DNA from: a virus
Taxonomy: Duplodnaviria > Heunggongvirae > Uroviricota > Caudoviricetes
Virus record (IMG/VR): IMGVR_UViG_3300017989_000052
DNA: 60,666 nucleotides
Direction: 5' to 3' (one strand)
Part shown: in pieces, positions 321 through 57,129 of the stretch
How positions within the stretch are numbered: the first letter of the stretch is position 1
Layout of the letters: the number at the start of each line of letters is the position of its first letter
Made by a program: the position numbers and the translations under genes
Notes under the pieces: model-generated
Databases searched by the model: none
Told to the model about the DNA's origin: nothing
Seen by the model: only the letters and a program-made list of their open reading frames with translations

Positions 321-665
321 ATGGATTTACGATTACATACCTTATATAGTGTTGGGGTTGAGAGTGAAGATGTATATTTTCCTTTCAACTTTTTCTATTT
401 TCTAGACCTCGATCCCTTTGCAGAGTACAGAAAACATGGGGTTGTGCTTTTTTCTGAAGGAAGCTTTTTTATCTCAGATGCTGTTAAATACTACTACGGC
501 GCCTTGAAAAATCCCTATCCTCATATACCATCGGCGAAGGTAAAGATAAAAGAAGTTCCTCTTGAAACATTACTCACTCACGAAGAACCGGGGTACAGGA
601 AAAAAGGGAAAGAGCTTTTAACTATGAAAAGGTCGCAACGACCCATAATAACTGTTAAAAAATGA
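321..665 (+). CDS. LTH-tag protein (C-terminal tag)
   Basis: PLETLLTHEEPGYRKKGKELL. Confidence 0.75.
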   Translation: MDLRLHTLYSVGVESEDVYFPFNFFYFLDLDPFAEYRKHGVVLFSEGSFFISDAVKYYYGALKNPYPHIPSAKVKIKEVPLETLLTHEEPGYRKKGKELLTMKRSQRPIITVKK

Positions 666-689
666 CATAGAATTTATTTCTCACGGTGT

Positions 690-722
690 TCCTTTGGTTT
701 TCCCCATATTTTAAATATAGGT
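690..722 (+). promoter_or_regulatory. putative phage promoter
   Basis: CATATTTTAAATATAGG; ATATTTTAAATATAGG recurs near 17775-17791. Confidence 0.5.
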
Positions 723-758
723 ACGACCAATGCCCAAACAGCAAGGAAAGAAAGACTC

Positions 759-1373
759 ATGGGAAGCCTATTCTATAACATTGCAACAGCAAACCTTGAA
801 GAAATCAAAGGTCTCCTAAAAGACTGTGGTGGGGAACAAGCCACCAAAGGAAAAATAGATCAAATGATTCAGCAGTTTTCTATCTCAAGAAAACTCATTC
901 AAAAAGGAATAACTGTTGAGCGGCTAACCGAAATAATTGCAGCGTTGCGTTATATTCAAGCTGAAAGCCCTCTTTCGGCGAAAAAGAAAAAGAAGAAAGG
1001 GTCAAAGAGCCCTTATAAGCGTTTGAGGCGGCTTACTATAGAAGAGGTCCTTCCCCACATTGGGCAAGAGGGGAAAGTTGACTTTGAGGGGCATCTCGTT
1101 AAATGTAATTCGCGTAGGCTTGTAATATTCAAGGAATCCCTTGCTTGTACTACTTGCGGCTTAAAAGGGAGTTTCTTTGCTGTGGAGACTTTTAGAAGAG
1201 GCAATCAGCAGACGCCTCATTTGAACCTTTACGCTCTTAATGACAAGGGCAACGAAGTTTTGATGACAATCGATCATATAAAGCCGAAATCTCTGGGGGG
1301 CGGCGACGAGTTTGAAAACCTACAAACCATGTGCGCTCCTTGCAATTCGGCTAAAGGGTCGATTCCAGGGTAA
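759..1373 (+). CDS. HNH endonuclease family protein
   Basis: CTTC ... TIDHIKPKSLGGGDEFENLQTMCAPCNSAKG, a canonical HNH motif. Confidence 0.85.
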   Translation: MGSLFYNIATANLEEIKGLLKDCGGEQATKGKIDQMIQQFSISRKLIQKGITVERLTEIIAALRYIQAESPLSAKKKKKKGSKSPYKRLRRLTIEEVLPHIGQEGKVDFEGHLVKCNSRRLVIFKESLACTTCGLKGSFFAVETFRRGNQQTPHLNLYALNDKGNEVLMTIDHIKPKSLGGGDEFENLQTMCAPCNSAKGSIPG

Positions 1374-1394
1374 CAGCAAGTAAGAGAGACCATC

Positions 1395-1931
1395 ATGGGA
1401 AAATACCATAACCGGCGGAACCTCTGGGCGAATGATAGGGCACTCGTAGCTGCCGTGAAGGCTGGAACAGCTGGCGCTGCCGAAACTTTTGTTGCTCGGT
1501 TTCAATCATTGCTGTTCGCTGCTACACTTCGACAGCCCACCCTCTCAGGCCAAGCAGAGGATCTAGTACAAAAAACCTTTCTAACCGCTTTTGCTTCCTT
1601 AGGAAAGCTGCGGAAGACCACTTCAGTGTGTACGTGGATACTTGGAATCCTACGGAATCACATTCGCGCCACCCGAAAAGGGGGACCCAAGGAAACTGGA
1701 ACAATAGCACGTATACTCTGCAACTTGCCCGACCCACACCGAAGCGTCCTCACATTGCGGTATCTGTGGGGGCTCGGAAATCTGGAGATTTCCCGAGAGG
1801 TGGGGTTGAAGGTTAAAGCAGTTGAGACAATCATACACCGAACCCGAAAGGTATTTGGGCAAACTGCCGAACCAAAGCTCAAGGATCTTTTGGATTCGTT
1901 TCCTACCCTATCAAAGCGGGATATAATTTAA
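1395..1931 (+). CDS. ECF-like RNA polymerase sigma factor (sigma-70 family)
   Basis: Region 2 AEDLVQKTFLTAF...TWILGILRN; region 4 LPDPHRSVLTLRYLWGL..EIS..VG....AVETIIHRTR. Confidence 0.85.
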   Translation: MGKYHNRRNLWANDRALVAAVKAGTAGAAETFVARFQSLLFAATLRQPTLSGQAEDLVQKTFLTAFASLGKLRKTTSVCTWILGILRNHIRATRKGGPKETGTIARILCNLPDPHRSVLTLRYLWGLGNLEISREVGLKVKAVETIIHRTRKVFGQTAEPKLKDLLDSFPTLSKRDII

Positions 1932-1942
1932 AAGAGGCCATC

Positions 1943-7367: not shown

Positions 7368-7685
7368 ATGGTAGAATCGATGGAAAACCCGGCAGGAAAA
7401 CTTTTCAGTTACAGGCATAGGTATGCCCATCGTTTGAGTTTCACACCGCATGGGAATGTTTGTTATTGGATCTTTTTTCATGAAACTTATGAAGAGGTTC
7501 TCGTAAGACACAGCGAAGCCTTTGAAGTGAAAACCTATAGGTCTAGTAAATGGAGAGAACGCTTTAAACAGGATAGGAATGATTTTCATGAAATTTGTAT
7601 ACCAGAACAACTAACAAATGGTGAGTTTCAACGGGGACCTAAACAGATTATTCGAAGATGGCTAGTTAATCTTTTAAACAAATGA
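7368..7685 (+). CDS. hypothetical protein (possible degenerate LTH tag)
   Basis: AGGAGG RBS before ATG 7368; PEQLTNGE near C-terminus. Confidence 0.6.
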   Translation: MVESMENPAGKLFSYRHRYAHRLSFTPHGNVCYWIFFHETYEEVLVRHSEAFEVKTYRSSKWRERFKQDRNDFHEICIPEQLTNGEFQRGPKQIIRRWLVNLLNK

Positions 7686-7993
7686 AGTACCTCTATACCT
7701 TTTACAAGGCAACCTTCTTATCCTCGGATGAAATAGTCTTTGTCCTGGTGGAAAATTCGAAAGGGCAGTTGTGCAGCTATTGTGCCGAGGTAGATTCTTC
7801 CCCACTAAATTTTCGGGTTGAGGGAACAGTGGAGGAATGGCTTGGCGGGCTTGTTTCATATTATGAGTTAGGAGCAGACCCCTGCGGTTATACCTATCAA
7901 AAGCTACACCCAGAACCTTTCTTGACCCATACGAACCGGACTGTTCGGAATGCCGCAAAGATAGCGACTAAAAATGAAGCTACTGAAACTTAA
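7682..7993 (+). CDS. LTH-tag protein (WxxG..TGxD subfamily)
   Basis: HPEPFLTHTNRTVRNAAKIA. Confidence 0.75.
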   Translation: MKYLYTFYKATFLSSDEIVFVLVENSKGQLCSYCAEVDSSPLNFRVEGTVEEWLGGLVSYYELGADPCGYTYQKLHPEPFLTHTNRTVRNAAKIATKNEATET

Positions 7994-8432
7994 CAATCTC
8001 CCCAAAAAGCCTAAGATGCTTCTTGGCATAGAATACGAAGATCAATATTTTATCTTGGAACATTGGGACCATAAGGATCTTTATTTCTTTGCACATCTCG
8101 ATAAGCAAGACCTGTTACGCTGGAAAGACGGGGAAATTTCCGAGAAAGACTTGGTTTCGGTTCGAGGCCGTAAACAGGTTCCAGGTTTTATAAAGATTTT
8201 CAAGCAACTTATTCTTAAAGAAATCTCTGGGAAAGAATTTCTAACCCACGATTCCCCTGTTGTTCGTCATATTGCTAGGGCATACCTTGAAAAAGATTTT
8301 GATTGGATCTATATATTTAAGCAGCTAGTGAACCTAACAGGGAAGAAGAGGATTGGCAAGAAAATGTTTCAAGACTTAAGCCGGAGACCAAGATATCAAA
8401 AAGGGAAATCTTTAAGGGTATGGCATGTCTAG
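7974..8432 (+). CDS. LTH-tag protein (internal tag)
   Basis: GKEFLTHDSPVVRHIARAYL. Confidence 0.75.
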   Translation: MKLLKLNNLPKKPKMLLGIEYEDQYFILEHWDHKDLYFFAHLDKQDLLRWKDGEISEKDLVSVRGRKQVPGFIKIFKQLILKEISGKEFLTHDSPVVRHIARAYLEKDFDWIYIFKQLVNLTGKKRIGKKMFQDLSRRPRYQKGKSLRVWHV

Positions 8433-8799
8433 AATACATATACTTTACGTTGCCGCTTCAAACGACTGTATCCTGGGGATTGAAAAACCAAAAATCGGGG
8501 AAGGCGTCGCAGCACTATTAACAGTCTTCGAGTCCCATTACGATGATCTTAGATTTAGAATCGCCGAAATCGCCCTAAAACACTTCGATTTAGACCCAGG
8601 GGTAGTAAATACCACCCAATTTAGACTAAGTCTCCCTGATGGAAAATTAGCAGGGAATTATACCCTATCTTTTTGGATTGCGGAAACAGAAGAGGAGCTG
8701 ATAAAAAAGGATAGCAGACTTCTCCAAACCAAAAAGCTAGAATCCTACTTAACATCTCAGCACCCGGGAATTCGAATCCTAGCGAAGGCCTACCTCTAA
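8425..8799 (+). CDS. LTH-tag protein (C-terminal tag)
   Basis: KLESYLTSQHPGIRILAKAYL*. Confidence 0.8.
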   Translation: MSRIHILYVAASNDCILGIEKPKIGEGVAALLTVFESHYDDLRFRIAEIALKHFDLDPGVVNTTQFRLSLPDGKLAGNYTLSFWIAETEEELIKKDSRLLQTKKLESYLTSQHPGIRILAKAYL

Positions 8800-9113
8800 T
8801 GTTTAAACACTTGAAAACCGGGGTCCCATATAAGTTTACTGCTACAACAAACAAAGGGACTAAAACGGGGTTATTCGTTTTTGATAAACATGGGGAACTA
8901 AAAATCTGTGGTAGGTGTAGTTATATAGAAACAATAGGCAAAGAGTCTTCCTCAACATGGGCACAACTTATCGAAGGGTACTTCGAAGAAAATGAAGGGG
9001 ATTTAGTAATTAAGTGCTTCTCCTATACCTTTTCTCGGGTATCAATAGAAGAACTTTTAACTGATGAAAATCTTCATGTAAGAGCTTGGGCGAAGGAACA
9101 GGCAGCTAAATGA
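8799..9113 (+). CDS. LTH-tag protein (C-terminal tag)
   Basis: SIEELLTDENLHVRAWAKEQA. Confidence 0.8.
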   Translation: MFKHLKTGVPYKFTATTNKGTKTGLFVFDKHGELKICGRCSYIETIGKESSSTWAQLIEGYFEENEGDLVIKCFSYTFSRVSIEELLTDENLHVRAWAKEQAAK

Positions 9114-11635: not shown

Positions 11636-12098
11636 AATTTACTACCGAAATTTTTACGATAAAGTATGCTACAGCGAAAGGGATTATACTTGGAGTTATG
11701 TTATAAGCGGGGAAAGAAAATATAGAACAAGAGCCCTGGATATTGAAATAACTCCTTGGGAGATGATCCATTTTGGGAAGTGGGTAACTGTAGCTTCCGG
11801 GTTTACTTCAGACGAAGTAGTCCCTCGGGAGGACACTCCCTTTACCTGGGTAAAAAGAAAAACAACGCTGACCCAAATTAAAAACTTCTCTTGGTTTGCA
11901 AAATGGGGGGCTAAGATTGCTTTCCTTTTTAAGAGAAAGAAATATCGGGAAATTTGTGCCTCTCAAATGAATGATCTTCGGAGGGGTTTAACGGCAAACG
12001 AAAATTTCGTGAGGTTGTTTTCAAAAGCATGCCTTACTAAATCTGCCACACAGCATAAAATTGCGGTGGAGTCGAAATTAAATGTTATCGAATATTGA
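11628..12098 (+). CDS. hypothetical protein
   Basis: Coupled ORF. Confidence 0.6.
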   Translation: MGKIYYRNFYDKVCYSERDYTWSYVISGERKYRTRALDIEITPWEMIHFGKWVTVASGFTSDEVVPREDTPFTWVKRKTTLTQIKNFSWFAKWGAKIAFLFKRKKYREICASQMNDLRRGLTANENFVRLFSKACLTKSATQHKIAVESKLNVIEY

Positions 12099-12468
12099 AA
12101 TCTACCGATACCGATACGGGCTATACGAACAATACGACTTTAAGAGGCAACTCACTTTAAGCGAGCAGCTTGGTTTTATCTTATCTTGGTCGTTTTATAA
12201 CGAAGCAATTCTTTTCTGCCGAGTACTCTCGATCGACATTACAACATGTGTGGTGAAGCTGCTTCCTTATAAATATCACTACGATAAGGAAGAGGGGGAA
12301 ATTATAAAAAGATGTGACCAAATACGAGTTTATGGATGGAAATATATTGCTGAAGGTTGGAAAAGAAATCAACAGGATAAACCCATTATTCGTCTTGAGG
12401 AGTTTTTAACCTCTCCAAGCAGAAGACAGCGGGTTTTGGCAAAAGCAATTTCGAAGAGTTTGAAGTAA
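12082..12468 (+). CDS. LTH-tag protein (C-terminal tag)
   Basis: RLEEFLTSPSRRQRVLAKAI. Confidence 0.75.
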   Translation: MLSNIEIYRYRYGLYEQYDFKRQLTLSEQLGFILSWSFYNEAILFCRVLSIDITTCVVKLLPYKYHYDKEEGEIIKRCDQIRVYGWKYIAEGWKRNQQDKPIIRLEEFLTSPSRRQRVLAKAISKSLK

Positions 12469-14805: not shown

Positions 14806-15028
14806 AACACACCGCTTGTCCTTTGAAGGAAGTCTGAAAGAGGTCTCTACCATACTGGAGGGGCTGCACGAGCTCATCTGCTCAACTACGGAAGCTAAAG
14901 TAGATGTTGTTGCAGGAAACAAAGGCACTTGGAAAGGAAAAGAAGCGGAAAAATTCTGGCTTGATTCGCATCTCAGGTACTTAGAGAAGATTAAGAAAAG
15001 TATTCGGGTAGAGGTTATCGATGATTAA
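14798..15028 (+). CDS. hypothetical protein
   Basis: Coupled ORF. Confidence 0.55.
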   Translation: MAKTHRLSFEGSLKEVSTILEGLHELICSTTEAKVDVVAGNKGTWKGKEAEKFWLDSHLRYLEKIKKSIRVEVIDD

Positions 15029-15326
15029 AGCCTTACTAACCCGACCGGAGCCTTCATTACGAATGTTGGCGAAAGATCTTTTAAAACGTGAGATCGATAA
15101 TTTTTGTGAAATTATTTGTCTTCAGGATGAGGGCTTTAACGCCTGGTCTTTCACCCTTCTTCATATTACAGAATCATGGTGCATGGCTAAAATTTCCTAT
15201 TCTCCTCGGAAAAATAGACCCTTCTATTTTCGATTTGAAAATACAAATCTATTCTTCGAAGATTCAGAAAGTCTTTCACAAATAATACGCCTTTGGGCAA
15301 GGAATCCGGATTCTTTTGATGTATAG
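15021..15326 (+). CDS. LTH-tag protein (N-terminal tag)
   Basis: MIKALLTRPEPSLRMLAKDLL. Confidence 0.75.
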   Translation: MIKALLTRPEPSLRMLAKDLLKREIDNFCEIICLQDEGFNAWSFTLLHITESWCMAKISYSPRKNRPFYFRFENTNLFFEDSESLSQIIRLWARNPDSFDV

Positions 15327-15726
15327 AATAGTAATCTCTACCTACAATTTCACCTTTTGTAAGGAACTTAAATCTTTCCCAAAACGGGAAAATATTGTTT
15401 CTGCCTTATTAGGGTTGGCCGACGCCGCTTATACGGACTTATACAAAGGCAACCTGCTAGAGATTAAAATTGATTTTAAGAGAAAAGAGTTTAATCTTAT
15501 TGATAATGAAAAAGAGGGAGACCAGTTTAATATGCAACACTATTGGGAAATAGTTGAGAAGGGAAAGAAGGTTCCCGTACTGGCGCCAATTCTGAATTCG
15601 ATCCGAAAACAGTTTCAAATGCTTCCCTTGAAAGCTTATTTCACACATAGTGCCCCCCTCTTTCGAATGATCGCAAAGGCAGACCTTAATTCTGATTTCA
15701 TTTGCGCAAAATCTAATGATTCTTAA
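15316..15726 (+). CDS. LTH-tag protein (C-terminal tag)
   Basis: PLKAYFTHSAPLFRMIAKADL. Confidence 0.75.
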   Translation: MMYRIVISTYNFTFCKELKSFPKRENIVSALLGLADAAYTDLYKGNLLEIKIDFKRKEFNLIDNEKEGDQFNMQHYWEIVEKGKKVPVLAPILNSIRKQFQMLPLKAYFTHSAPLFRMIAKADLNSDFICAKSNDS

Positions 15727-16057
15727 TCTAAAACAGGCACTAACAAATAGAAGTCTGCTGGTACGCCAGGCGGCAAAAAAGCTGAGTATGCTGTGCCCAG
15801 AAAAGCCTATTGCTTTCTATATACATTATCCTTCTCTTGAAATCGCGTTAAAAGAAGATAAGCATCGTTTCTTTTGTATTAAGAAAATGGATTCATCGTT
15901 TTACGACGTAATGGAAGTAAGAATGATTATTTATTGGGGATATGGAGCAGCGGGGCTTCCAGAACAAGGTAAATTCTTCTCAAGGGGCTGCAAAGATTTA
16001 ACCGAACTTCTTTCTTTATTAGAAAAGTGGTATTATAAAGAAGGGAACTTTGCTTAA
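15716..16057 (+). CDS. LTH-tag protein (N-terminal tag)
   Basis: LKQALTNRSLLVRQAAKKL. Confidence 0.75.
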   Translation: MILNLKQALTNRSLLVRQAAKKLSMLCPEKPIAFYIHYPSLEIALKEDKHRFFCIKKMDSSFYDVMEVRMIIYWGYGAAGLPEQGKFFSRGCKDLTELLSLLEKWYYKEGNFA

Positions 16058-16062
16058 ATTTT

Positions 16063-16380
16063 ATGAAAATAACTGTATTCAAACCTTTAGTTGTGCGCTC
16101 CGATGATTATATTGTTTTTGTAGAATACGCAGAAGGGTGGCCCGATTTATTTTTCCTAAAAAAAGGGAAGGTCCTCCACGATATACGGGATTACACTATG
16201 TATCATGATATTATGTATCGCCCAAACGAAGTGCTTGGCGTAAAATATGCAGAAAGCTTTTTTCCTACAAACGGAACAAATTGTAGTGTTATCCCTGCGG
16301 AAGTATTATTAACTGAGAAAAAAGCAAGCTATCGAACATTTATGAAAAATCTTCTAGAATATAGCAAGGAAAGAAAATGA
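16063..16380 (+). CDS. LTH-tag protein (degenerate C-terminal tag)
   Basis: PAEVLLTEKKASYRTFMKNLL. Confidence 0.65.
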   Translation: MKITVFKPLVVRSDDYIVFVEYAEGWPDLFFLKKGKVLHDIRDYTMYHDIMYRPNEVLGVKYAESFFPTNGTNCSVIPAEVLLTEKKASYRTFMKNLLEYSKERK

Positions 16381-16547
16381 AAGTTTCAATATCTTTATTT
16401 GAATTAGAACAAGCTATTCGAGAATACGTGAGAAAGAAAGGGATCCAAGTCGACGACAATGCAAAGGTCGAAATGGAATATACTAAAGATTATGATGAAA
16501 CTTATTTAGAAGGAGCTTCTATCCAAATTAAAGAGAAGCAAACTTAA
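16377..16547 (+). CDS. small hypothetical protein (56 aa)
   Basis: ATGA overlap; fills the gap between tagged genes. Confidence 0.55.
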   Translation: MKVSISLFELEQAIREYVRKKGIQVDDNAKVEMEYTKDYDETYLEGASIQIKEKQT

Positions 16548-16550
16548 ATT

Positions 16551-16898
16551 ATGAATTTTTATCACACAACTGTGGACGGGCTACATTCCCGCTATAGCAT
16601 AATCCTTACTTCGTTACCGACAGTAAACGAGCTACTTCTCTGGGCAGCTGAAATCCTTATCGAGAAGGAAGATATCGGCAGAGTTTCTGGTAAGGCCGCA
16701 CTACATAATAATAAAGTATTTAGTAGAAAAGATTCTATTTCGATAAGTTTTTCAACTGAAAGAAACCGACTTTTCAATTTTCACGCGGCATCTTCAAAAA
16801 TTGACTTAGAGGATGTGAAAACTTTGGAGTCCTACCTAACTCACGCGGAACCTGTGATACGGCGGCTTGCAAAACAGAGGATGGAAATCCCTGAATGA
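16551..16898 (+). CDS. LTH-tag protein (PxxxE subfamily)
   Basis: LPTVNELLLWAAE; TLESYLTHAEPVIRRLAKQRM. Confidence 0.8.
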   Translation: MNFYHTTVDGLHSRYSIILTSLPTVNELLLWAAEILIEKEDIGRVSGKAALHNNKVFSRKDSISISFSTERNRLFNFHAASSKIDLEDVKTLESYLTHAEPVIRRLAKQRMEIPE

Positions 16899-16941
16899 AA
16901 TGCTTCGTCGCCTTGTTTGAAACCAGTAGGAGCACGGCAAG

Positions 16942-17460
16942 ATGAAATTCCTTAACCTCGGCGTTGTTGATGGGGCGAGACTTTCATGCTCAAGAACTCC
17001 AATTCGCCACGACAACTCATCCCTTGTTTTTGCCCTAGTCTTAAAAGAAATTGAGTCTACCCTTAAAAGGTTAAAAATCGAAATAGATTACCCCTATGAT
17101 ATTATTCGATTAGAAACCTCAACTTTCAAGGCCTTCAAATTCAAATTAAAGGAGTTAAGAGCTTCTTGGATGTGGGAACGGTCTTCCTTAGGAAATTTTC
17201 TTCGTACTATTCGAGGTTTCCTTCTAGACTTTAGGGATCAATGTTTTCAAATGGATCTTAATGAGGAGGATATGGAGAATGAGGAATTTATTTTCCTCCA
17301 AGCAAGAGAAAAAGAACTGTCTAAAAATAACTATCTTTATTTTTTCTTTTGGCACGTAGACGAGCAAGGGGAAGAAGAAGGAAAGCTTGAAACCTTCTTG
17401 ACCGCCAGCCATAAGGAGGTTCGGGATTTGGCCGTGACGTTTCTCAGGAAGAAAAAATGA
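16942..17460 (+). CDS. LTH-tag protein (C-terminal tag)
   Basis: KLETFLTASHKEVRDLAVTFL. Confidence 0.75.
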   Translation: MKFLNLGVVDGARLSCSRTPIRHDNSSLVFALVLKEIESTLKRLKIEIDYPYDIIRLETSTFKAFKFKLKELRASWMWERSSLGNFLRTIRGFLLDFRDQCFQMDLNEEDMENEEFIFLQAREKELSKNNYLYFFFWHVDEQGEEEGKLETFLTASHKEVRDLAVTFLRKKK

Positions 17461-17759
17461 AAATAACCAATAAAGTTTTTCAGATAGAACGTCATCTCTA
17501 TTGGGTCTTAAGTACTAATGAAATCCTTGCCATCTGCCTACCAGAGAAGTTGAAGTTTCAGTATCCGCCGCACCTCGTTAAATCAAACCACCCCAATTGG
17601 TATGTTCTAATTGAAAGATTCAGTAGACAGATAGAGGGGCATCCAAAAAAAGATAGCGAATTTGAAGTTAAGGAGCTCCCGCTCCATAACCTTTTAACTG
17701 TCGACGATCCACGGGTTCGCGCTTTAGCGAAAAAGGAGCTTCAAAAACTCAAACGTTAA
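17457..17759 (+). CDS. LTH-tag protein (C-terminal tag)
   Basis: PLHNLLTVDDPRVRALAKKEL. Confidence 0.8.
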   Translation: MKITNKVFQIERHLYWVLSTNEILAICLPEKLKFQYPPHLVKSNHPNWYVLIERFSRQIEGHPKKDSEFEVKELPLHNLLTVDDPRVRALAKKELQKLKR

Positions 17760-17792: not shown

Positions 17793-17808
17793 AGGTACCA
17801 TTTAAGGG

Positions 17809-38549: not shown

Positions 38550-38550
38550 A

Positions 38551-40473: not shown

Positions 40474-41002
40474 CCACCTTTCTAAATATTTAACCCACGA
40501 ATCAGCAGGTCTTAGAGATTGGGTGAAGTCTAGAATCCCAAGAACAGACCAAAGATATGAAGTGATCGAAGGTAATACCAACTATATTCCAAAAGAATCC
40601 CACTATGTCTATGGAGAAGTTAATGTTTCCAGCAATGACTTAAAATCTCTAAGAGTCAAAGTCCTTTATTGTGAAGCCCTTGATTGCTTTAATAATCAAT
40701 TAACATCCCTTCCGGAACTTCCAGTTTGTGAGACACTTCATTGTGGCAATAATCAATTAACACAACTCCCCAAACTTCCTGTCTGCAAAACTCTCTATTG
40801 TCGGCCCAACCAATTAGAATACCTCCCAGAACTTCCTGTCTGTGAAGAACTTGATTGTGGAAGTAATCAATTAACCCAACTCCCCAATCTTCCTGTCTGC
40901 AAAACTCTCTATTGTCGGGCCAATCAATTAGAATACCTTCCGGAGCTTCCAAAATGTGAAGATCTTAGTTGTGAAGATAATCCAGGATATCCATTTAAAT
41001 GA
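40466..41002 (+). CDS. LRR protein 3 (N-terminal LTH tag, five LRRs)
   Basis: HLSKYLTHESAGLRDWVKSRI; ends CEDLSCEDNPGYPF. Confidence 0.85.
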   Translation: MNSHLSKYLTHESAGLRDWVKSRIPRTDQRYEVIEGNTNYIPKESHYVYGEVNVSSNDLKSLRVKVLYCEALDCFNNQLTSLPELPVCETLHCGNNQLTQLPKLPVCKTLYCRPNQLEYLPELPVCEELDCGSNQLTQLPNLPVCKTLYCRANQLEYLPELPKCEDLSCEDNPGYPFK

Positions 41003-41397
41003 TCTCAAATAACCACCTCATAAAATATCTAACCCATGAATCTAAACATCTTAGAAATTGGGTAAAAGAAAGAATCCCAAGAACAGATCAAAGATTTATT
41101 GTGATAGAAGGTAACATCGATTATATTCCAGAAGAACATACATATGTCTATGGAGAAGTTTATATCTCAAATCAAAATCTCAAATCCCTAAATAGAAAAG
41201 TTATATATTGTGAAGCCCTTTATTGTTTCCATAATCAATTAATAAAACTTCCAGACCTCCCAGTTTGCGTGTACCTTGATTGTACAGGTAACCAATTAAT
41301 ACAACTCCCAAACCTTCCCGCTTGTAAATACCTTCATTGTAGAGAGAATAAATCACAGCCCTTCCAAACCTCCCAGTATGTGAAGTGATATGGCAAT
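40999..41397 (+). pseudogene. LRR protein 4, 3' frameshift and truncation
   Basis: HLIKYLTHESKHLRNWVKERI; after CRENK the repeat continues in another frame (TALPNLPVC) and there is no C-cap. Confidence 0.65.
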
Positions 41398-41762: not shown

Positions 41763-42110
41763 ATGTATAGCATAAAATTTTCAAATCCCCATTCCACCAT
41801 GATCAGACGTTACCATTTTGAGAAGAAACCAACTTTTAGTGATAAGTTTGGAGCCTGTTTAAGTTATCTAGAAGAGTTGATCGAAACAGGATATTCCCTA
41901 TGGGAAAGTTTAATACAAGGCCCCTATAAAATGTCCTTTACCGAGTTTTCAGAGTGGGATGGAGAACTCTTTTTTATAATAGCAGAAAGATATCGTGTTA
42001 CATATCATATTAGGAAAATGGAAACAGCCCAACCTGTCCCCGCCTTTCTAACCTCCAAGTATCCTAAGATAAGAGAGCAAGCTAAGAGAGCAAGCAAAAA
42101 GATTTATTGA
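41763..42110 (+). CDS. LTH-tag protein (PxxxE subfamily), paralogue of 44250
   Basis: RRYHFEKKPTFSDKFGACLSYLE; VPAFLTSKYPKIREQAKRA. Confidence 0.8.
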   Translation: MYSIKFSNPHSTMIRRYHFEKKPTFSDKFGACLSYLEELIETGYSLWESLIQGPYKMSFTEFSEWDGELFFIIAERYRVTYHIRKMETAQPVPAFLTSKYPKIREQAKRASKKIY

Positions 42111-42759
42111 GATAGAGTGATACAAGATATAATAGATATAGGATTAATTAAGAATATAGGATTAAGAAGTATCTCTAAATATCTACACCCTAAACAACCC
42201 TATTTCCTATCTTAACACCCAGGTTAAAAGATCCCAAATACAAACCCCTAAGCCAGAATAAGATAGCATTAAGACCCCCTTTTCTTAGATCAAGAAGGAG
42301 TTAAGGTTAAGTTAATCTTTATAGCGAAAATCGCGAATATCGGCGTGAGACCGCGAGAAGTATTTGAAAAGCAGGAAAATCACAAGAAATCGCAAGAAAT
42401 CACAGAAAGTGCTTGAGAGACCAGACCTATGTGTCTCAACAACTCCCCGTTTTCTAATCCACAAAAAATAAAAAACGGTTCGGTTTTCTAATACATCTCA
42501 ATAACTAAAAAGCATCTCAAACACTTTTTAGAAATAACTAAATATCTGAAAGAACAATCTCAATACTCCTATACTTATTATACGAATTATCCTCCCCAAG
42601 TTTAACTCTTTCTTTCTAAATCCTTTTTTGCTAAGGGTTTATCAAAATTAGTCTATGAGAAGCACATACAAATGTTGTTTATTTCGCCGGGGAAAATCTG
42701 TCCTTTTCCGGCTCATATGCTTCTCAAATACGTTTATTTCGTATAAAGATTAACCGGTT
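42111..42759. other. 650-bp non-coding region, candidate replication origin
   Basis: Strand-skew switch, clustered TCTCAA/TTGAGA sites, inverted repeat TGAGAAGCA/TGCTTCTCA. Confidence 0.45.
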
Positions 42760-43083
42760 TTGGAGATTTTCATGTATCGGGACAGGAACACTTACGAGGA
42801 CCTAATAGGGCTAGGGAAAAGGGTAAAGTCTGGAATATTTAGGTTCCTGGTCTTACCTGACGTATATCACTATATCTGGTTTTTGGATGAAACTCGGCAT
42901 ATATACTTCTCTGATACAAGGTTTGAGGAGGCTCAGGCTCTTTATACTCGATCTGTGTGGGCTTCTCAAATACTGATTAAGGCTTTACCTGGGCAAGAAA
43001 AGGTTTCACTACAATCTCTCTTAACTCATATGAATCCTCGGGTTAGGACAAAAGCAAAGGAGGTATTGGATGGCGCGGCCTAA
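42760..43083 (+). CDS. LTH-tag protein (C-terminal tag)
   Basis: SLQSLLTHMNPRVRTKAKEVL. Confidence 0.8.
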   Translation: MEIFMYRDRNTYEDLIGLGKRVKSGIFRFLVLPDVYHYIWFLDETRHIYFSDTRFEEAQALYTRSVWASQILIKALPGQEKVSLQSLLTHMNPRVRTKAKEVLDGAA

Positions 43084-43324
43084 GCTAGAGCGGACTAATA
43101 AGGTATTTAGATTCGACTTACACTCAATCGTTTTCGCTTGGTTTTTGGAAGGCCCTGTTTATATTCTTTTCACAGATACTTATTTTCAGGCTCACAGATA
43201 CGAAGATCGTGGAAATTGGCTAGCCCCCTCGGCCGAAATACCGATTAGGTCTCTCTTAACTCATGCGAATCCTCTAATTAGAGCGAAAGCAAAGGAGATG
43301 TTAGCTAAAGATGGGACTATTTAA
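43070..43324 (+). CDS. LTH-tag protein (EIPIxSLLT subfamily)
   Basis: EIPIRSLLTHANPLIRAKAKEML. Confidence 0.8.
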   Translation: MARPKLERTNKVFRFDLHSIVFAWFLEGPVYILFTDTYFQAHRYEDRGNWLAPSAEIPIRSLLTHANPLIRAKAKEMLAKDGTI

Positions 43325-43745
43325 GATGCATTATTACTTGATTACATTTTCGGAAATCTTTTATCCTTATCTTTCTTTAATGGCTAGTTGTGAGCGGACT
43401 CGGATAGAATACAAGCCGGTTCCTCTCTCTACGAAATTTGAGATAAAGGGGAAGGACATTAAATTATTGCTTGTTAAGTTATTGGGTTCTAGGGGGGATT
43501 TAAGGGAGATTCTGGACATAGAGGCTGAGATATTGGAATCTTCTAAATTCTCAAATACTTACGATTATACTACTAATCTTAGGGCGACTCTTAAGGATGT
43601 GCGGGGGGAAAGGGTTAATTTAGTTTTTGAATGTAAGGTTCTCTCGGTAGCTAAGTTTGAGGAGAATTTGGTACCGGAATCTCTCTTAACTCATGAGAAT
43701 CCTTCAATTAGGGACTATATTAAGAAGAATAGGAAAAAGTTTTAA
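43311..43745 (+). CDS. LTH-tag protein (C-terminal tag)
   Basis: VPESLLTHENPSIRDYIKKN. Confidence 0.8.
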   Translation: MGLFKMHYYLITFSEIFYPYLSLMASCERTRIEYKPVPLSTKFEIKGKDIKLLLVKLLGSRGDLREILDIEAEILESSKFSNTYDYTTNLRATLKDVRGERVNLVFECKVLSVAKFEENLVPESLLTHENPSIRDYIKKNRKKF

Positions 43746-44075
43746 GTGAAGAAACGCTTACTCAAGAAAAGGGTATTAGATTCTTTGTTGAATCGGGCTT
43801 TTATACGTTCTTTTGGTGGGGGAAAGGATCTTTTCATATTCTTGGGCTCTTTTATTCTCTGGCATAAAACTCGATTTTGGATTAAGTCTGATTTTGAACA
43901 TCTTGCGGTTCTTAAGATAGAGGGGGAAGCTTGTTATGACTGGGGAAAGATGATTTTCTATTGGGATGCTTCTGATGATCTAGTAAGTATCTCAGAGGTT
44001 CCGATTAAATCTCTCTTAACCTTTAGGAATAAAGAGGTTAGGGAAAAGGTGAAGGAGATTCTATGCAAAGATTAA
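43746..44075 (+). CDS. LTH-tag protein (EIPIxSLLT subfamily)
   Basis: EVPIKSLLTFRNKEVREKVKEIL. Confidence 0.8.
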   Translation: MKKRLLKKRVLDSLLNRAFIRSFGGGKDLFIFLGSFILWHKTRFWIKSDFEHLAVLKIEGEACYDWGKMIFYWDASDDLVSISEVPIKSLLTFRNKEVREKVKEILCKD

Positions 44076-44249
44076 CTCTTTTGATGATTTTTGAGCTGTC
44101 TTTTGAGGCAAAACACCGGAATATTTTTGTCTTTTTCAAACCTCAAAGATCTCTACGTCCTTGAAAGATATGGACTTAGATAAAGATTAACCGGTTTTAA
44201 GGTTTTTGGATGCTTAGAATTTTCTGACATACCTCTAATAGGTGGAGAT

Positions 44250-44597
44250 ATGTATAAAGTTACATTTACAAACACTCAAACTGTTGCGCTTCGTGACTAT
44301 TATTTTGAGAAGAAACCTGATGCTAATGCTAGGTTGGGTGCTGGCTTGGAGTATCTTGAATACTTATTATCTGGGGGTGGAAGTTTCTGGTCTCAAGCGA
44401 TGGTGAATGCTAAATACTTACGTTTTGTTGAGAAGCAAAAGGGTAATTGTGGTTATTTACTTATTTACATGGGGGTTTCTTGTGAGCTCCTTCTTACTTA
44501 TGAGGTTTGTAAATTAAGGATTGCTCGATCTCCGGAATCTTTCTATACATCTAAGTGGTCTGGGATACGTAAGTTTGTGAAGGAGAGGTTGGGTTAG
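44250..44597 (+). CDS. LTH-tag protein, paralogue of 41763
   Basis: RDYYFEKKPDANARLGAGLEYLE; PESFYTSKWSGIRKFVKERL. Confidence 0.8.
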   Translation: MYKVTFTNTQTVALRDYYFEKKPDANARLGAGLEYLEYLLSGGGSFWSQAMVNAKYLRFVEKQKGNCGYLLIYMGVSCELLLTYEVCKLRIARSPESFYTSKWSGIRKFVKERLG

Positions 44598-54847: not shown

Positions 54848-55007
54848 GAAATCGGATTTAAAAAAACCCAGCCAATTTTTTAAAACCCAGCTTTTGATAC
54901 CTATTAAAAATTTCCCTGGCTATGTGGGTATAAAAGGGGATTAGAAAAAACTGTGTTTTTTAAGAAAGCTTTGAAATCGGATTTTAAAAAAACCCAGCCA
55001 ATTTTTT
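54848..55007. repeat. ~34-bp direct repeat x2
   Basis: GAAATCGGATTT(T)AAAAAAACCCAGCCAATTTTTT at ~54848 and ~54973. Confidence 0.8.
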
Positions 55008-55037
55008 GGAACCTAGTTTTTGGGTCTTACGTGTCTT

Positions 55038-55355
55038 ATGGATATATACAAGGTAACTTTGCATTTAGACCTCACACATCCTTGGGCCATACTTGGGACA
55101 GTACAATCTAAGGTCTTGGGCTACTTATACCCGGAGAACGCGAGTGGGGGGACTGCGTTCCGGTATCCTTTTCTTGATTGGGGGTTTTGGGAAAAAGGAT
55201 TAAATAAGTTTTTGGAAACGGGGGATGATCGGGGAAATGCGTACTCTTATACTTACGAGGCGGCTCCTCTTCAATCTCTGCTCACACACTCAGATTCGCG
55301 TATACGCGAATCTGCGAAGTGTTTATTAAAAGAAATTGAAAGTTCGCGCACATGA
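55038..55355 (+). CDS. LTH-tag protein (WxxG..TGxD subfamily)
   Basis: WEKGLNKFLETGDD...PLQSLLTHSDSRIRESAKCLL. Confidence 0.8.
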   Translation: MDIYKVTLHLDLTHPWAILGTVQSKVLGYLYPENASGGTAFRYPFLDWGFWEKGLNKFLETGDDRGNAYSYTYEAAPLQSLLTHSDSRIRESAKCLLKEIESSRT

Positions 55356-55708
55356 CTCCTCTAGAAGATAAAACATTTTATCACATCTACGACTTGGGTT
55401 ATGATTCGGATGAGGGGTATCTCTATCTATTCAAGGATCGGGGTGCTTGGGAGGTTGCTTTTTTAGGCGACAAAAGTTTTCTTAGGGAGAACGCGAGTCT
55501 TAACAAGGCGGATAGGGAGGATTGGGTAAAGGGTATTCGTTCTTTTTATGAGACAGGGGAGGATTCGAACTACTCCTCGAGTTTTGTATATACACAGATA
55601 TCTCCGGAGGTTTTGCTTACTCACTCAAATCCTGGGGTACGGAGTTTCATCAAGGATAGGCTTAGGGGTAAAGTTTTGGATACTAGTATTTTTGGATGGG
55701 GGGACTAA
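55352..55708 (+). CDS. LTH-tag protein (WxxG..TGxD subfamily)
   Basis: WVKGIRSFYETGED...PEVLLTHSNPGVRSFIKDRL. Confidence 0.8.
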   Translation: MTPLEDKTFYHIYDLGYDSDEGYLYLFKDRGAWEVAFLGDKSFLRENASLNKADREDWVKGIRSFYETGEDSNYSSSFVYTQISPEVLLTHSNPGVRSFIKDRLRGKVLDTSIFGWGD

Positions 55709-56214
55709 TGGCTCGTAATTATGGGTATAACCCATCTTCTTATTTAAGGGGTCTAGGTCCTTTGAGCAGGGTTTCTGAATTAAAGTCAGAGATCTTAAGG
55801 GTTTTGGATTCTGAGCTTAAGTCTTTAGATGAGGATAAATTAGATCAATTTGACCCTTTTGTATATTATGGGGGCAAGGACGGTCTTAGGTCTACTCATT
55901 ACCATTTTCGTTTTAGGCTGGATACAGAGTTAGGGGATTCATTAAGGGATTTAAGGAATTCTGGTTATTCTTTTAGGGTTCCTAAGAGGATTCCTGACAG
56001 AGCAACTCTCTTTGAGTTTTTGGTTATGGCTTTAAAAAGGGTTCTTGTTGAGGATGGCCTATGGGATAATTTTGATATTTATGATGATGGCACTTTCTTC
56101 TATCTTGAATTAACTTTGGACAAATTAAGGGCTTATTTTGAATTGGGCTGTTTCCAGGGGACTTCTTATCCTATTAAGGGATATCCAATGGGAGAGGACG
56201 AGCCTCCTTTCTAA
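55708..56214 (+). CDS. hypothetical protein
   Basis: Coupled ORF. Confidence 0.65.
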   Translation: MARNYGYNPSSYLRGLGPLSRVSELKSEILRVLDSELKSLDEDKLDQFDPFVYYGGKDGLRSTHYHFRFRLDTELGDSLRDLRNSGYSFRVPKRIPDRATLFEFLVMALKRVLVEDGLWDNFDIYDDGTFFYLELTLDKLRAYFELGCFQGTSYPIKGYPMGEDEPPF

Positions 56215-56230
56215 TTATGTTTCATCTACT

Positions 56231-56761
56231 ATGTTTTATCAAAGGCGAGCTACAAAATACGAATTTATCCATATAGGGTTTAGGAAGGTGGTTCACTTCA
56301 AGCAAGGGGATGTGGATCTCCATCTTGGGGGGATTGCTAAGATATTTCTTTCTAGTTATTGGGCTACTATCTCTAGATATAAATTAATTTCTCCTTCTCT
56401 TTTATTGGACCTCCAATACTCTGGGTACAATGCGTATGCTACTTGGGCCAAATCTTATATCTTAGAGAAGCTTCGTTCTAAGGGGTCTCCTTTATTATTG
56501 GAGGCTGCTCATAAGGATTCGACTTTTCACATTCATTGGGATTTAGGCGATGGGGAATCAATGCTTTTATCGGAGCAGGAGGTACTACCTTTACGTTATG
56601 GTCTTACTGACTTATGGCTAGGGGAGATTTATGATTCTTTAATTTTTGGGAAACCGAGGGGCAAACACACTTACACAGAGGTACCTTATACATCTCTGCT
56701 GACTCATCGGAATCCTGAGGTTAGAAAGAAGGTTAAATCCTTATGGGGGCGAAAGGGATGA
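56231..56761 (+). CDS. LTH-tag protein (C-terminal tag)
   Basis: PYTSLLTHRNPEVRKKVKSLW; start uncertain. Confidence 0.75.
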   Translation: MFYQRRATKYEFIHIGFRKVVHFKQGDVDLHLGGIAKIFLSSYWATISRYKLISPSLLLDLQYSGYNAYATWAKSYILEKLRSKGSPLLLEAAHKDSTFHIHWDLGDGESMLLSEQEVLPLRYGLTDLWLGEIYDSLIFGKPRGKHTYTEVPYTSLLTHRNPEVRKKVKSLWGRKG

Positions 56762-57129
56762 TTTTATGGGAGCTTCGTATTTTTGAGATAAAGCCTCTTC
56801 CTGGGGGCTGGAATTTACTTTTATCTTATTTATTTAGGGAGAAGCCTTCTAAGGAGACAATGTATGCCTTTCTCCTTGATTACTTAGCTGAGGCATATAG
56901 TGAGGTACCTTTTAAGCTTTCTGTTTTTGGTCATTCTGTAACAGTTAAATACGATATCAATGTTTTTAGCCATGCGGATCAATTCATTTTACGTTTAGTT
57001 AAGCAGGATATTAGTCTCACGGAACCTTTACGTTTAGAGTCTATGCTGACTCATTCGAATTCTTCGATTCGGGAAGCTGTGAAATCTTTTAAGCGGGGTG
57101 CTACTATTTTGGGGGTTGAGGATTCTTAA
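56758..57129 (+). CDS. LTH-tag protein (PxxxE subfamily)
   Basis: KPSKETMYAFLLDYL; RLESMLTHSNSSIREAVKSF. Confidence 0.8.
   Translation: MILWELRIFEIKPLPGGWNLLLSYLFREKPSKETMYAFLLDYLAEAYSEVPFKLSVFGHSVTVKYDINVFSHADQFILRLVKQDISLTEPLRLESMLTHSNSSIREAVKSFKRGATILGVEDS

What the first reader, a model, noticed from the sequence alone, without database searches (positions are those of the whole stretch)
321..57129. About 64 divergent small proteins share one ~20-aa single HEAT-like 'LTH' tag: candidate universal docking or targeting system
Seen: roughly 64 ORFs, over 40% of the genes here, carry phi-[E/K]-x-[F/Y/L]-L-T-[H/S/D/N]-x4-[I/V/L]-R-x-x-A-K-x-x-phi (e.g. KLESYLTSQHPGIRILAKAYL, SIEASLTHEDLFIRRFAKLL, PIKSLLTHVNPQVREVAKDIL). 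Each has exactly one copy, and about 50 have it at or near the C-terminus. The rest of the proteins are mostly unalignable, the tag DNA is diverged so selection acts on the peptide, and none of the recognisable enzymes carry it. Known: it resembles one HEAT/PBS-lyase unit (LxxLLxDxxxxVRxxAxxAL), but these normally occur in tandem, and here Thr replaces the usual residue before Asp. Inference: a lone helical hairpin kept on so many cargos acts as an address label. It could bind a common phage partner (virion loading and injection, a compartment, a protease or adaptor in the manner of F-box tags) or co-polymerise into a mixed solenoid. I know of no described phage system like this.
Basis: partly seen in the sequence, partly recalled or inferred. 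Interest (0 to 1): 0.95.

Follow-up and report, generated by a model that had tools for sequence, protein, structure and literature searches.

The report
Solitary HEAT-like hairpin on phage proteins
About half of the genes in this stretch of a roughly 335-kb uncultured phage encode small proteins that all carry one copy of the same 25-residue helix-turn-helix, attached to several unrelated protein bodies; it looks like a shared handle for one still unknown partner.

Summary
A profile of the motif finds 59 plus-strand ORFs (E<0.1) and none on the minus strand or in shuffled proteins. Each ORF has one copy: 47 are C-terminal, 9 N-terminal and 3 internal. Codon use at the invariant residues matches background, so selection acts on the peptide.

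- The bodies are not all unalignable. Sixteen share a real beta-alpha-beta domain (family B), about 10-16 form a looser family A, four are IpaH/YopM-type LRR proteins with the motif at the N-terminus, and one has a SAP domain.
- The A and B bodies are unrelated to each other, so this is not one paralogous family.
- AlphaFold predicts a confident helix-turn-helix, apparently fixed to the body rather than on a floppy linker.

New findings:
- Between diverged orthologues the motif is 66% identical and the rest 36%.
- The motif also occurs in an unrelated 38.6-kb phage that co-occurs in two samples, and in contigs from a third project.
- Its best sequence matches are units of bacterial tandem HEAT proteins.

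The most likely reading is a portable solitary HEAT-like module that serves as a common interaction handle. The partner is unknown and docking is not shown. This scan had already noted the same motif in two other windows of this genome.

The parts
321..57129 (+). Span holding all 59 tagged ORFs (E<0.1). They have a median length of 120 aa (range 62-289) and lie in co-directional, tightly packed arrays.
   Evidence: controls.
321..665 (+). Isolated tagged ORF of A-like type; tag at nt 546-629.
   Evidence: E 1.6e-9.
7682..9113 (+). Four consecutive tagged ORFs: 7682 (A-like), 7974 (internal tag), 8425 (family B) and 8799 (A-like).
12082..12468 (+). Weakly tagged ORF (E 0.04).
15021..18932 (+). 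Seven tagged ORFs. Those at 15021 and 15716 carry the tag at the N-terminus. 15316 and 16551 are family B. 16942, 17457 and 18324 are C-terminal. A related phage contig (L054) keeps the order 16551-16942-17457.
19873..24394 (+). Eight tagged ORFs. They include 21295 (289 aa, internal tag), 22531 (family B, modelled; tag nt 22798-22881) and 22877 (N-terminal tag lying back to back with the tag of 22531).
26469..37184 (+). The densest array, with 22 tagged ORFs. Ten are family B members (28443, 28784, 29506, 30504, 31208, 32878, 34675, 35222, 36771 and others). It also holds the SAP-plus-tag ORF 34073-34291 and the N-terminal-tag ORFs 30856 and 36440.
38515..41388 (+). LRR array with the tag at the N-terminus. 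Intact genes are at 38515-39009, 40424-41002 and 40999-41388; a broken copy is split into 39597-39785 (tag) and 39826-40473 (LRR). Two small C-terminally tagged ORFs (39044, 39300) lie in between.
   Evidence: Pfam LRR_4 at 2.8e-7; alignment A4; model with pLDDT 90 and pTM 0.83.
41763..44597 (+). Six to seven tagged ORFs. 41763 and 44250 are family B (the latter with a degenerate tag). 42760, 43070, 43311 and 43746 are of the A-like 'E-x-P-x3-LLTH' type.
55020..57129 (+). Four tagged ORFs: 55020, 55352 and 56138 are A-like, and 56743 is family B.
   Evidence: The region is identical in four other metagenome assemblies.
22798..22881 (+). Example tag in a family B protein. In the model, helix A is residues 95-100, the turn 101-103 and helix B 104-116 of the 121-aa protein.
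   Evidence: pLDDT 95-98 over the tag.
38551..38631 (+). Example N-terminal tag in an LRR protein. Helices 3-8 and 14-23 are followed by a beta-hairpin and the LRR solenoid.

Best explanation
The 'LTH tag' is a real protein module of about 25 residues: a solitary HEAT/PBS-lyase-type repeat unit. It comprises a short helix ending in L-T, a 3-residue turn with an N-cap and Pro, and a basic amphipathic helix carrying R-x2-A-K.

It is neither a DNA element nor the signature of one paralogous family. It is fused, always in single copy, to at least four unrelated kinds of small body:
- a beta2-alpha-beta3 domain (family B, 16 copies in this window);
- a second small domain (family A, about 10-16 copies);
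- IpaH/YopM-type LRR arrays (module at the N-terminus);
- a SAP domain;
- about 20 orphans.

These families have expanded in a roughly 335-kb uncultured phage until they make up about half the genes in this window. The models suggest the module sits as a fixed terminal cap on each body.

The proposed mechanism is inferred, not shown. The module would be a common interaction handle that fixes many different, fast-evolving binding bodies to one invariant partner, by the same logic as F-box or PRANC adaptors. Because an unrelated 38.6-kb phage from the same samples uses the same module, the partner is more likely a host component than a structure peculiar to the huge phage.
For: Shown:
- Strand-specific, single-copy occurrence far above chance.
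- Peptide-level selection, with synonymous codons at background frequencies.
- Family B bodies are homologous without the tag. In leave-one-out profiles 9 of 26 candidates score E<=1e-5 and about 7 more score above shuffles. The core profile recovers 15 members plus one ORF with a degenerate tag, and no clearly untagged ORF.
- A and B bodies are unrelated (hhalign probability 0.05%).
- LRR_4 and SAP domains occur on other members.
- The models give a helix-turn-helix with pLDDT 92-98: family B has mean pLDDT 82 and pTM 0.66, and the LRR protein has pLDDT 90 and pTM 0.83.
- Structural neighbours of the B body cover residues 1-87 only, so the hairpin is an addition to a generic alpha/beta body.
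- Between nine orthologue-like pairs from related phages the tag is 66% identical and the rest 36%.
- The module carries a mean net charge of +2.5, while the bodies are neutral on average.
- Fifty-three family B proteins are found in 1.84 billion representatives, and about 35 of them are not from this window.
- Eight more tags lie in another 20 kb of the same genome.
- Three to four tagged ORFs lie in a complete 38.6-kb phage with its own terminase and helicase and no other similarity to the sequence held. It is present in two samples that also hold the huge phage.
- Eight tags occur on GC-32% contigs of another project.

Inferred: the common-partner role. It rests on module conservation exceeding body conservation, fusion to binding-type bodies (LRR, SAP), placement at either terminus, and sharing between unrelated phages.
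Against: - No partner was identified.
- The residues that never vary (T, H/S/D/N, P, R, A, K) also appear in single units of ordinary bacterial tandem HEAT proteins (L023, L048, L068, L026, L077). Their invariance could therefore be structural rather than a binding epitope.
- The hairpin appears fixed to its own body. Confidence is high through the linker. The split-chain test gave weak support only: ipSAE 0.38 against a best control of 0.01. That mark was reached by 58 of 80 solved complexes and 2 of 110 mismatched pairs, but scores of 0.60 or under came from only 7 of those 80 solved complexes and from both mismatches that passed. The runs agree in at least 53% of contacts, and the partner's pLDDT is at least 41.
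- The family B body never occurs without the tag.
- Tags are more alike within families than between them (0 of 1000 permutations; partly circular for family A). This points to old fusions inherited with the bodies rather than a freely exchanged label.
- The T and R invariance is partly a selection effect of the profile.
Confidence: 0.4

Rival explanations
1. The hairpin is a purely structural cap or folding nucleus. It covers an exposed hydrophobic surface (the sheet of family B, the N-terminal end of the LRR solenoid) and is the most constrained part of small, rapidly diverging proteins. There is no common partner, and each body has its own function.
For: Confidence is high through linker and hairpin, and pTM is 0.83 for the LRR protein. 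The split-chain test gave weak support for packing on the body: 0.38 against a best control of 0.01. That mark was reached by 58 of 80 solved complexes and 2 of 110 mismatched pairs, but scores of 0.60 or under came from only 7 of those 80 solved complexes and from both mismatches that passed. Run agreement is at least 53% and partner pLDDT at least 41. The invariant residues are those of ordinary HEAT units in bacterial proteins. Helix B has a wide hydrophobic arc (positions +6, +9, +10, +13, +14). The family B body never lacks the tag. The tags have family-specific flavours.
Against: The same 25 residues would have to fit unrelated folds (an alpha/beta sandwich, an LRR solenoid, a SAP motif and helical proteins) at either terminus. 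Caps are normally fold-specific. This reading does not explain the basic charge, the expansion to a large share of a genome, or the presence in an unrelated co-occurring phage.
Confidence: 0.3
2. The hairpin is a loading signal for a phage-built container, either the procapsid (for ejection with the DNA) or an intracellular compartment. It would work like the C-terminal helix-turn-helix of phage P22 scaffolding protein, encapsulin cargo-loading peptides or microcompartment encapsulation peptides. These comparisons come from general knowledge and were not tested here.
For: The module is a terminal, basic, amphipathic helical hairpin. It sits at either terminus, as encapsulation peptides do. It is attached to many different cargos. 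LRR proteins are plausible injected effectors.
Against: The genes lie in long arrays of small ORFs among nucleotide-metabolism and RNA-repair genes, with no structural genes in view. More than 60 different cargo species would be unusual. The unrelated 38.6-kb phage would need a compatible receptor in a different capsid, and its tagged genes sit beside helicase and methyltransferase-like genes. The hairpin appears packed on its body. The profile search of solved structures listed no scaffolding protein.
Confidence: 0.1
3. The basic hairpin binds nucleic acid or an acidic surface or membrane non-specifically. The families would then be diversified DNA- or RNA-associated proteins.
For: The mean charge is +2.5, the tails are rich in K and R, and R and K lie one turn apart on helix B. 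One member pairs the hairpin with a SAP domain, which is a DNA-binding motif.
Against: HEAT-type hairpins are not known nucleic-acid readers. No Pfam DNA-binding helix-turn-helix model matches consistently: one RHH_3 hit among 50 tags at 0.002. The strict invariance of T and A is not explained by charge alone.
Confidence: 0.1
4. The hairpins bind each other. Tags from different proteins would stack into a mixed solenoid or pair into four-helix bundles, giving combinatorial hetero-oligomers.
For: HEAT units normally stack on each other. Helix B has more hydrophobic surface than one helix-helix contact needs. Rare relatives carry two units in one chain (P0049, P0051).
Against: The models place the hairpin on its own body. 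The strict single copy per protein argues against any advantage of tandem stacking.
Confidence: 0.05
5. The motif is an artefact or trivial: a chance match, a DNA or RNA signal at gene ends (ribosome-binding site, recombination linker), or a single ordinary paralogous family.
For: Most tags abut the next gene's start. Family B is a genuine paralogous family.
Against: There are no hits on the minus strand or in 2340 shuffles. Codons at the invariant residues are at background frequencies. N-terminal and internal copies exist. The A and B bodies are unrelated, and LRR and SAP bodies occur too.
Confidence: 0.02

Closest known systems
HEAT / PBS-lyase HEAT-like repeats (Pfam PF02985, PF13646, PF03130)
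   Same: Both are two-helix units with the pattern L-L-x-[polar]-x2-P-x-[IV]-R-x2-A-x3-L. The best profile matches among solved structures are designed HEAT/ARM-type repeat proteins (4rzp, E 7.8e-5 summed over repeats). Near-identical units occur within bacterial tandem HEAT proteins.
   Different: The phage unit is always solitary (59 of 59), whereas HEAT units work in tandem solenoids. No full-length member matches a Pfam HEAT model at E<=1, and only 2 of 50 isolated tags reach E 0.06. Thr precedes the turn, and Lys follows the conserved Ala.
F-box proteins, and poxvirus ankyrin proteins with a C-terminal PRANC/F-box-like domain (general knowledge)
   Same: In both, one short conserved helical module sits on many divergent proteins, often joined to repeat-type binding domains such as LRR. 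The module is more conserved than the variable part, and the families are greatly expanded in a virus.
   Different: There is no sequence similarity (no Pfam hit). No Skp1-like hub is known or found. Bacteria lack the SCF system, and binding to any hub is untested.
Lineage-specific expansions of small domains in jumbo phages, for example about 35 zinc-ribbon copies in Bacillus phage G (PMC7824862)
   Same: Both are large in-genome expansions of a very small module in a giant phage, with unknown function.
   Different: This case has more copies (59 in 57 kb, and more elsewhere in the genome). The module is a helical hairpin joined to several unrelated bodies, and it also occurs in an unrelated small phage.
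Terminal targeting helices: the P22 scaffolding-protein coat-binding helix-turn-helix, encapsulin cargo-loading peptides and microcompartment encapsulation peptides (general knowledge)
   Same: These are short terminal amphipathic, often basic, helical elements that address diverse cargos to one shell, at the N- or C-terminus.
   Different: No sequence match was found, and no shell or capsid link was seen. The module here appears packed on its body rather than on a flexible linker.
IpaH / SspH / YopM-type bacterial LRR domains
   Same: The four LRR genes have 19-20-residue LPxLPxC-type repeats. They match Pfam LRR_4 (2.8e-7), and their best fold matches include the SspH1, IpaH and YopM LRR domains, though these matches are weak.
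   Different: There is no NEL ligase domain. An LTH hairpin plus a beta-hairpin forms the N-terminal part. The genes are phage-encoded and 129-192 aa long.

Membership tests
HEAT repeat proteins (PF02985 / PF13646 / PF03130) | The unit is an antiparallel two-helix hairpin with the L-L...[D/N]-x2-P-x-V-R-x2-A...L signature. | tested here: met
   The AlphaFold models give helix-turn-helix.
HEAT repeat proteins (PF02985 / PF13646 / PF03130) | A significant match to a curated HEAT model. | tested here: not met
   No HEAT family appears among the hits of 55 full-length members at E<=1. PF02985 is hit by 2 of 50 isolated tags at a best E of 0.06, below the gathering score.
HEAT repeat proteins (PF02985 / PF13646 / PF03130) | Tandem array of three or more units forming a solenoid. 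| tested here: not met
   There is one unit per ORF in all tagged ORFs. The only possible exception is ORF 21295, which may have a degenerate second unit (seen by eye).
F-box / PRANC-like adaptor families | A conserved module shared by many proteins with divergent target-binding parts. | tested here: met
F-box / PRANC-like adaptor families | The module binds one invariant hub protein. | not testable with these tools
   The host is unknown and the whole phage genome is not held.
F-box / PRANC-like adaptor families | Sequence membership in the F-box or PRANC families. | tested here: not met
   Neither family appears in the Pfam scans.
Capsid or compartment targeting peptides | A terminal amphipathic or basic helical element on diverse cargos. 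| tested here: met
Capsid or compartment targeting peptides | The cargo is found inside the virion or compartment, and a receptor shell protein exists. | not testable with these tools
   There are no proteomics data, no structural genes in the DNA held, and no RNA runs listed.
   Family B is homologous. However, the A and B bodies give an hhalign probability of 0.05%, LRR and SAP bodies are different folds, and about 20 ORFs join no family.
IpaH/YopM-type LRR proteins (for the four LRR genes) | LRR repeats of the bacterial LPxLP type. | tested here: met
   Pfam LRR_4 at 2.8e-7, alignment A4, and fold hits to SspH1, IpaH and YopM LRR domains at weak E-values.

The most novel reading that the evidence does not exclude
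A phage-borne adaptor system in bacteria. More than a hundred fast-evolving binder proteins per genome (beta-alpha-beta bodies, LRR arrays, SAP and others) would each be plugged through one solitary HEAT-like hairpin into a single hub. The hub could be a host protease, a polymerase or another central machine, or a phage-built compartment. The phage could then redirect or disable many host targets through one mechanism. Other phages of the same host, such as the co-occurring 38.6-kb phage, would share the plug.
Probability: 0.3. Interest if true: 0.9.

Novelty: new variant of a known kind. Interest (0 to 1): 0.68.

Why it matters
Most genes of huge phages are orphans with no handle for study. 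In this phage roughly half of the genes in a 57-kb stretch, and more elsewhere in the genome, share one small, sharply conserved module. One experiment could therefore assign a working principle to dozens of unknown proteins at once: find what the hairpin binds, or show that it is only a cap. If the module is a common docking handle, it would be the first phage counterpart of the F-box or PRANC strategy that eukaryotes and their large viruses use. It would also offer a compact natural tag for biotechnology. If it is only structural, it is still an unusual case: a single HEAT unit that is apparently stable outside a solenoid and has been reused as a cap by unrelated folds.

Tried and rejected
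- **Identity of the window.** There was no match in the phage record collection by DNA or with the 727-aa protein. The 727-aa protein and an exact 40-mer found nothing in viral contigs.
- **Whole genome.** No whole genome is held, and the metagenome records behind the loci cannot be searched whole. No genome-wide count and no genome-wide receptor search were therefore possible.
- **Family libraries.** Ten tagged proteins gave nothing useful in Pfam or PHROGs.
- **Fold searches.** For the family B model, the best solved-structure match had Z 6.7 and rows covered residues 1-87 only. AlphaFold DB clusters gave TM<=0.5, and the Atlas gave TM<=0.51. No fold assignment was made. Foldseek on the LRR model gave no match at E<=0.001.
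- **N-terminal-tag group.** The four non-LRR proteins with N-terminal tags (15021, 15716, 22877, 30856) look alike by eye, but leave-one-out profiles do not support a family.
- **Transcription signals.** Sigma-70-like promoters and terminators in 26-45 kb are at shuffle level. TATAAATA occurs 8 times against 4 expected, and 4 of 100 shuffles reach 8. The timing of expression could not be inferred.
- **RNA.** Rfam finds only the three tRNAs. No RNA holder is listed among the sequencing runs, and read laying was not used.
- **Reference genomes.** GTDB genomes gave 26 single pattern hits and no tag-dense contig. The good hits are units of tandem HEAT proteins.
- **Family A profile search.** The last word-index search returned only 6 proteins.
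- **Shared proteins with the small phage.** Apart from tagged ORFs, no ORF of the 38.6-kb phage resembles anything in the roughly 110 kb of huge-phage DNA held. No shared phage-encoded receptor candidate emerged, but two thirds of the huge genome was not examined.
- **Large neighbouring proteins.** The 727, 693 and 1101-aa proteins have no Pfam family.
- **Literature.** Four full-text look-ups found no description of this motif in phages.

Full report
**What is in the sequence**

The window is a 60.7-kb stretch with 35-49% GC. It consists of small, tightly packed, mostly plus-strand ORFs, with three tRNA genes.

The strict motif [LIVMF]-T-[HSDN]-x4-[IVLM]-R-x2-[AS] occurs 35 times in plus-strand reading frames and never in minus-strand frames. 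A profile built from these hits and refined on 50 tags (alignment A1) finds 53, 56, 59 and 63 plus-strand ORFs at E<1e-3, 1e-2, 0.1 and 1. It finds no minus-strand ORF at E<1, none of 2340 shuffled proteins and none of 117 reversed proteins at E<0.1.

I count 59 tagged ORFs among about 116 called plus-strand genes between 321 and 57129. Their median length is 120 aa. Each has one copy: 47 are C-terminal (41 end within 10 residues of the stop), 9 are N-terminal and 3 are internal.

The conserved core runs from about -8 to +16 around the Thr. Hydrophobic residues sit at -5, -2 and -1, followed by T, then H/S/D/N, an N-cap residue at +3, Pro at +4, I/V/L at +6, R at +7, A at +10, K at +11 and L/I at +14.

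Codons at the invariant L, T, H, R, A and K follow the genes' background usage. Both Leu and both Arg codon families are used, and third-position identity is at the expected level. Selection therefore acts on the peptide, not on a DNA or RNA signal.

**Where the window comes from**

No whole genome is held for the window. One tagged protein lies on near-identical contigs (99.8-100%) from several sediment and seawater metagenomes. The longest contigs are 335,479 and 384,251 bp.

Recognisable untagged genes in the window encode:
- an HNH endonuclease, a metallophosphatase and a NYN ribonuclease-type domain;
- a sigma-70-like factor, guanylate kinase, an RNA-repair-type HAD, an SPFH protein and a transglutaminase-like peptidase.

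Another 20 kb of the same contig carries DNA and RNA ligases, an aminoacyl-tRNA synthetase, a polynucleotide kinase-phosphatase-like protein (PNKP) and NAD-salvage genes, together with eight more tagged ORFs. This is a huge uncultured phage, as earlier notes of this scan also concluded.

**Are the bodies unrelated?**

Profile methods give a different picture.

*Family B.* I tested 26 candidates in leave-one-out fashion, with the tag and the nine residues before it removed. Nine scored E<=1e-5 and about seven more scored clearly above their own shuffles. A core profile recovers 15 members and one further ORF (44250) whose tag is degenerate. It recovers no clearly untagged ORF. This family (alignment A3) has the layout strand-strand-helix-strand-strand-strand followed by the tag.

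*Family A.* This second group is marked by a Trp-containing helix and a Y-x-Y-x-E-x-P lead-in to the tag. It is looser: two members are strongly supported and about seven modestly.

*LRR proteins.* Four genes, plus one broken copy, are LRR proteins of the bacterial LPxLP type with the tag at the N-terminus.

*Others.* One 72-aa protein pairs a SAP domain with the tag. About 20 ORFs join no family.

The tag-stripped profiles of A and B show no similarity (hhalign probability 0.05%). It is several expanded families and orphans that share one module.

**Structure**

AlphaFold2 with the family B alignment gives mean pLDDT 82 and pTM 0.66. The tag forms helix 95-100, a three-residue turn and helix 104-116, at pLDDT 95-98, with high confidence through the linker.

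With the LRR alignment the model has pLDDT 90 and pTM 0.83. Tag helices 3-8 and 14-23 precede a beta-hairpin and the solenoid.

Structural neighbours of the B model are weak and cover residues 1-87 only. The hairpin is thus an addition to a generic alpha/beta body.

A split-chain prediction of the B body (1-88) against its own tag (89-121) gave weak support. The score was 0.38 against a best control of 0.01. That mark was reached by 58 of 80 solved complexes and 2 of 110 mismatched pairs, but scores of 0.60 or under came from only 7 of those 80 solved complexes and from both mismatches that passed. The runs agree in at least 53% of contacts, and the partner's pLDDT is at least 41.

Taken together, the hairpin is probably fixed on its body rather than dangling. 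This is a prediction only.

**What the module resembles**

No Pfam HEAT model reaches significance on full-length members. Only 2 of 50 isolated tags touch PF02985, at E 0.06.

The profile's best matches among solved structures are designed HEAT/ARM-type repeat proteins. The degenerate-pattern scans turned up bacterial tandem HEAT proteins in which a single unit, in several cases the last one, reads almost like the tag consensus (L023, L048, L068, L026, L077).

The module is therefore a HEAT/PBS-lyase-type unit used singly. It fails two defining features of HEAT-repeat proteins: a curated model match and a tandem array. I describe it as HEAT-like and do not file it as a member.

**Distribution beyond this window**

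A family B profile search of 1.84 billion representatives found 53 proteins at E<=1e-3. About 35 are not encoded in the window. Some lie elsewhere on the same genome. Others are diverged orthologues at 32-49% identity on short contigs from the same and related sample sets.

In nine orthologue-like pairs the 20-residue tag is 66% identical and the rest of the protein 36%. One relative contig (L054) keeps the gene order 16551-16942-17457 with all tags intact.

Degenerate DNA patterns for the tag found three further sets:
- A complete 38.6-kb phage (IMGVR_UViG_3300029258_002841), which IMG/VR classes as having direct terminal repeats and CheckV rates 100% complete. It has its own large terminase and helicase, no nucleotide similarity to the window, and three to four tagged ORFs. 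One of these resembles window ORF 56138 beyond the tag (38% over 66 aa).
- The same small phage, 100% identical, in a second sample. Both samples also hold the huge phage.
- Contigs of another project at 32% GC, with six and two tags (L016, L017).

In one genome per prokaryote species the pattern gave only single hits, and the good ones lie in tandem HEAT proteins.

An earlier follow-up in this scan stated that the motif was not found outside the lineage (e1-1856060). These results correct that statement.

**Interpretation**

Four points are shown:
- The module is a peptide-selected, single-copy, HEAT-like hairpin.
- It is joined to several unrelated bodies at either terminus.
- It is more conserved than those bodies.
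- It is basic, with a mean charge of +2.5 against neutral bodies, and it is shared by unrelated co-occurring phages.

From this I infer that the module has a function of its own. The most likely function is a common interaction surface that fixes variable binding bodies to one invariant partner, as F-box and PRANC modules do. Rigid attachment to the body does not conflict with this, because F-box domains are also fixed to their LRR or WD40 parts (general knowledge). The presence of LRR and SAP bodies fits a layout of binding part plus handle. Sharing with an unrelated phage favours a host-encoded partner.

Several points count against this reading. No partner was found. The invariant residues are those of ordinary HEAT units and could be structural. 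The family B body never occurs without the tag. Tags also carry family-specific flavours (the family A grouping partly used residues next to the tag), which indicates old fusions inherited with the bodies.

I give the common-handle model 0.4, a purely structural cap 0.3, a capsid or compartment loading signal 0.1, nucleic-acid or surface binding 0.1, and tag-tag co-assembly 0.05. Chance, a DNA-level signal and a single-family explanation are refuted.

**Novelty and limits**

Large in-genome expansions of tiny domains are known in jumbo phages, for example about 35 zinc ribbons in phage G (PMC7824862). I found no description of a solitary HEAT-like unit used in this way.

The main limits are these:
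- Only about 110 of 335 kb of the genome could be read.
- The host is unknown and no expression data exist.
- The profile favours T and R, which inflates their apparent invariance.

Noticed in passing
L011+L012 (IMGVR_UViG_3300029258_002841, 38,644 bp); tagged ORFs at 1412-1618 (+), 23449-24072 (-), 24039-24467 (-) and 38029-38412 (+, weak): A complete small phage with its own terminase and helicase carries the same hairpin on three to four ORFs. It is found, 100% identical, in two samples that also contain the huge phage. It may share the host, or possibly depend on the huge phage.
   Followed up: partly
window 32068-32634 (+): An untagged 188-aa transglutaminase-core / CEP76-peptidase-like protein (papain-like fold) sits in the middle of the densest tag array. 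Whether it acts on tagged proteins is unknown.
   Followed up: no
window 1395-1931 (+): Phage-encoded sigma-70-like factor, matching region 2 (E 8.7e-6) and region 4 (E 2.6e-8).
   Followed up: no
window 39597-39785 and 39826-40473 (+): One LRR paralogue is split. A 62-aa ORF holds the N-terminal tag, and a separate 215-aa ORF holds eleven LRR units. This is a frameshifted or decaying copy.
   Followed up: partly
window 22798-22957, 30765-30924, 15619-15799 (+): At three gene junctions a C-terminal tag of one ORF lies directly next to an N-terminal tag of the next ORF, in another frame. This may be a trace of shifted gene boundaries within tandem paralogues.
   Followed up: no
P0049 (252 aa) and P0051 (167 aa), on short ENA contigs: Relatives carry two body-plus-tag units in one chain. 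These are the only multi-copy cases seen.
   Followed up: no
L023 2631-3296 (+), L048 6840-7430 (-), L068 2349-3623 (-): In these bacterial tandem HEAT proteins the C-terminal unit reads almost like the phage tag consensus (L-T-H-x-x-P-W-I-R-x-E-A-K-K). This is a possible cellular source of the module.
   Followed up: partly
window 44000-56000: A zone of higher GC (0.46-0.49) holds three tRNA genes (Met 47204-47279, Lys 48940-49012, Met 49185-49258), many short ORFs on both strands and no tags between 44600 and 55000. Rfam finds only the tRNAs.
   Followed up: partly
L020 422-1006 (+), L025 222-596 (+), L030 4917-5210 (+): In related contigs the N-terminal tag is joined to further body types: a different LRR-like repeat, a beta-rich domain, and a protein with a C-terminal hydrophobic (membrane-like) helix.
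   Followed up: no
window 57746-59929 (-) and the adjoining 693-aa and 1101-aa genes (L001 14894-16975 and 17117 onward): Three large proteins next to the array have no Pfam or PHROG family and no relatives in viral contigs.
   Followed up: partly
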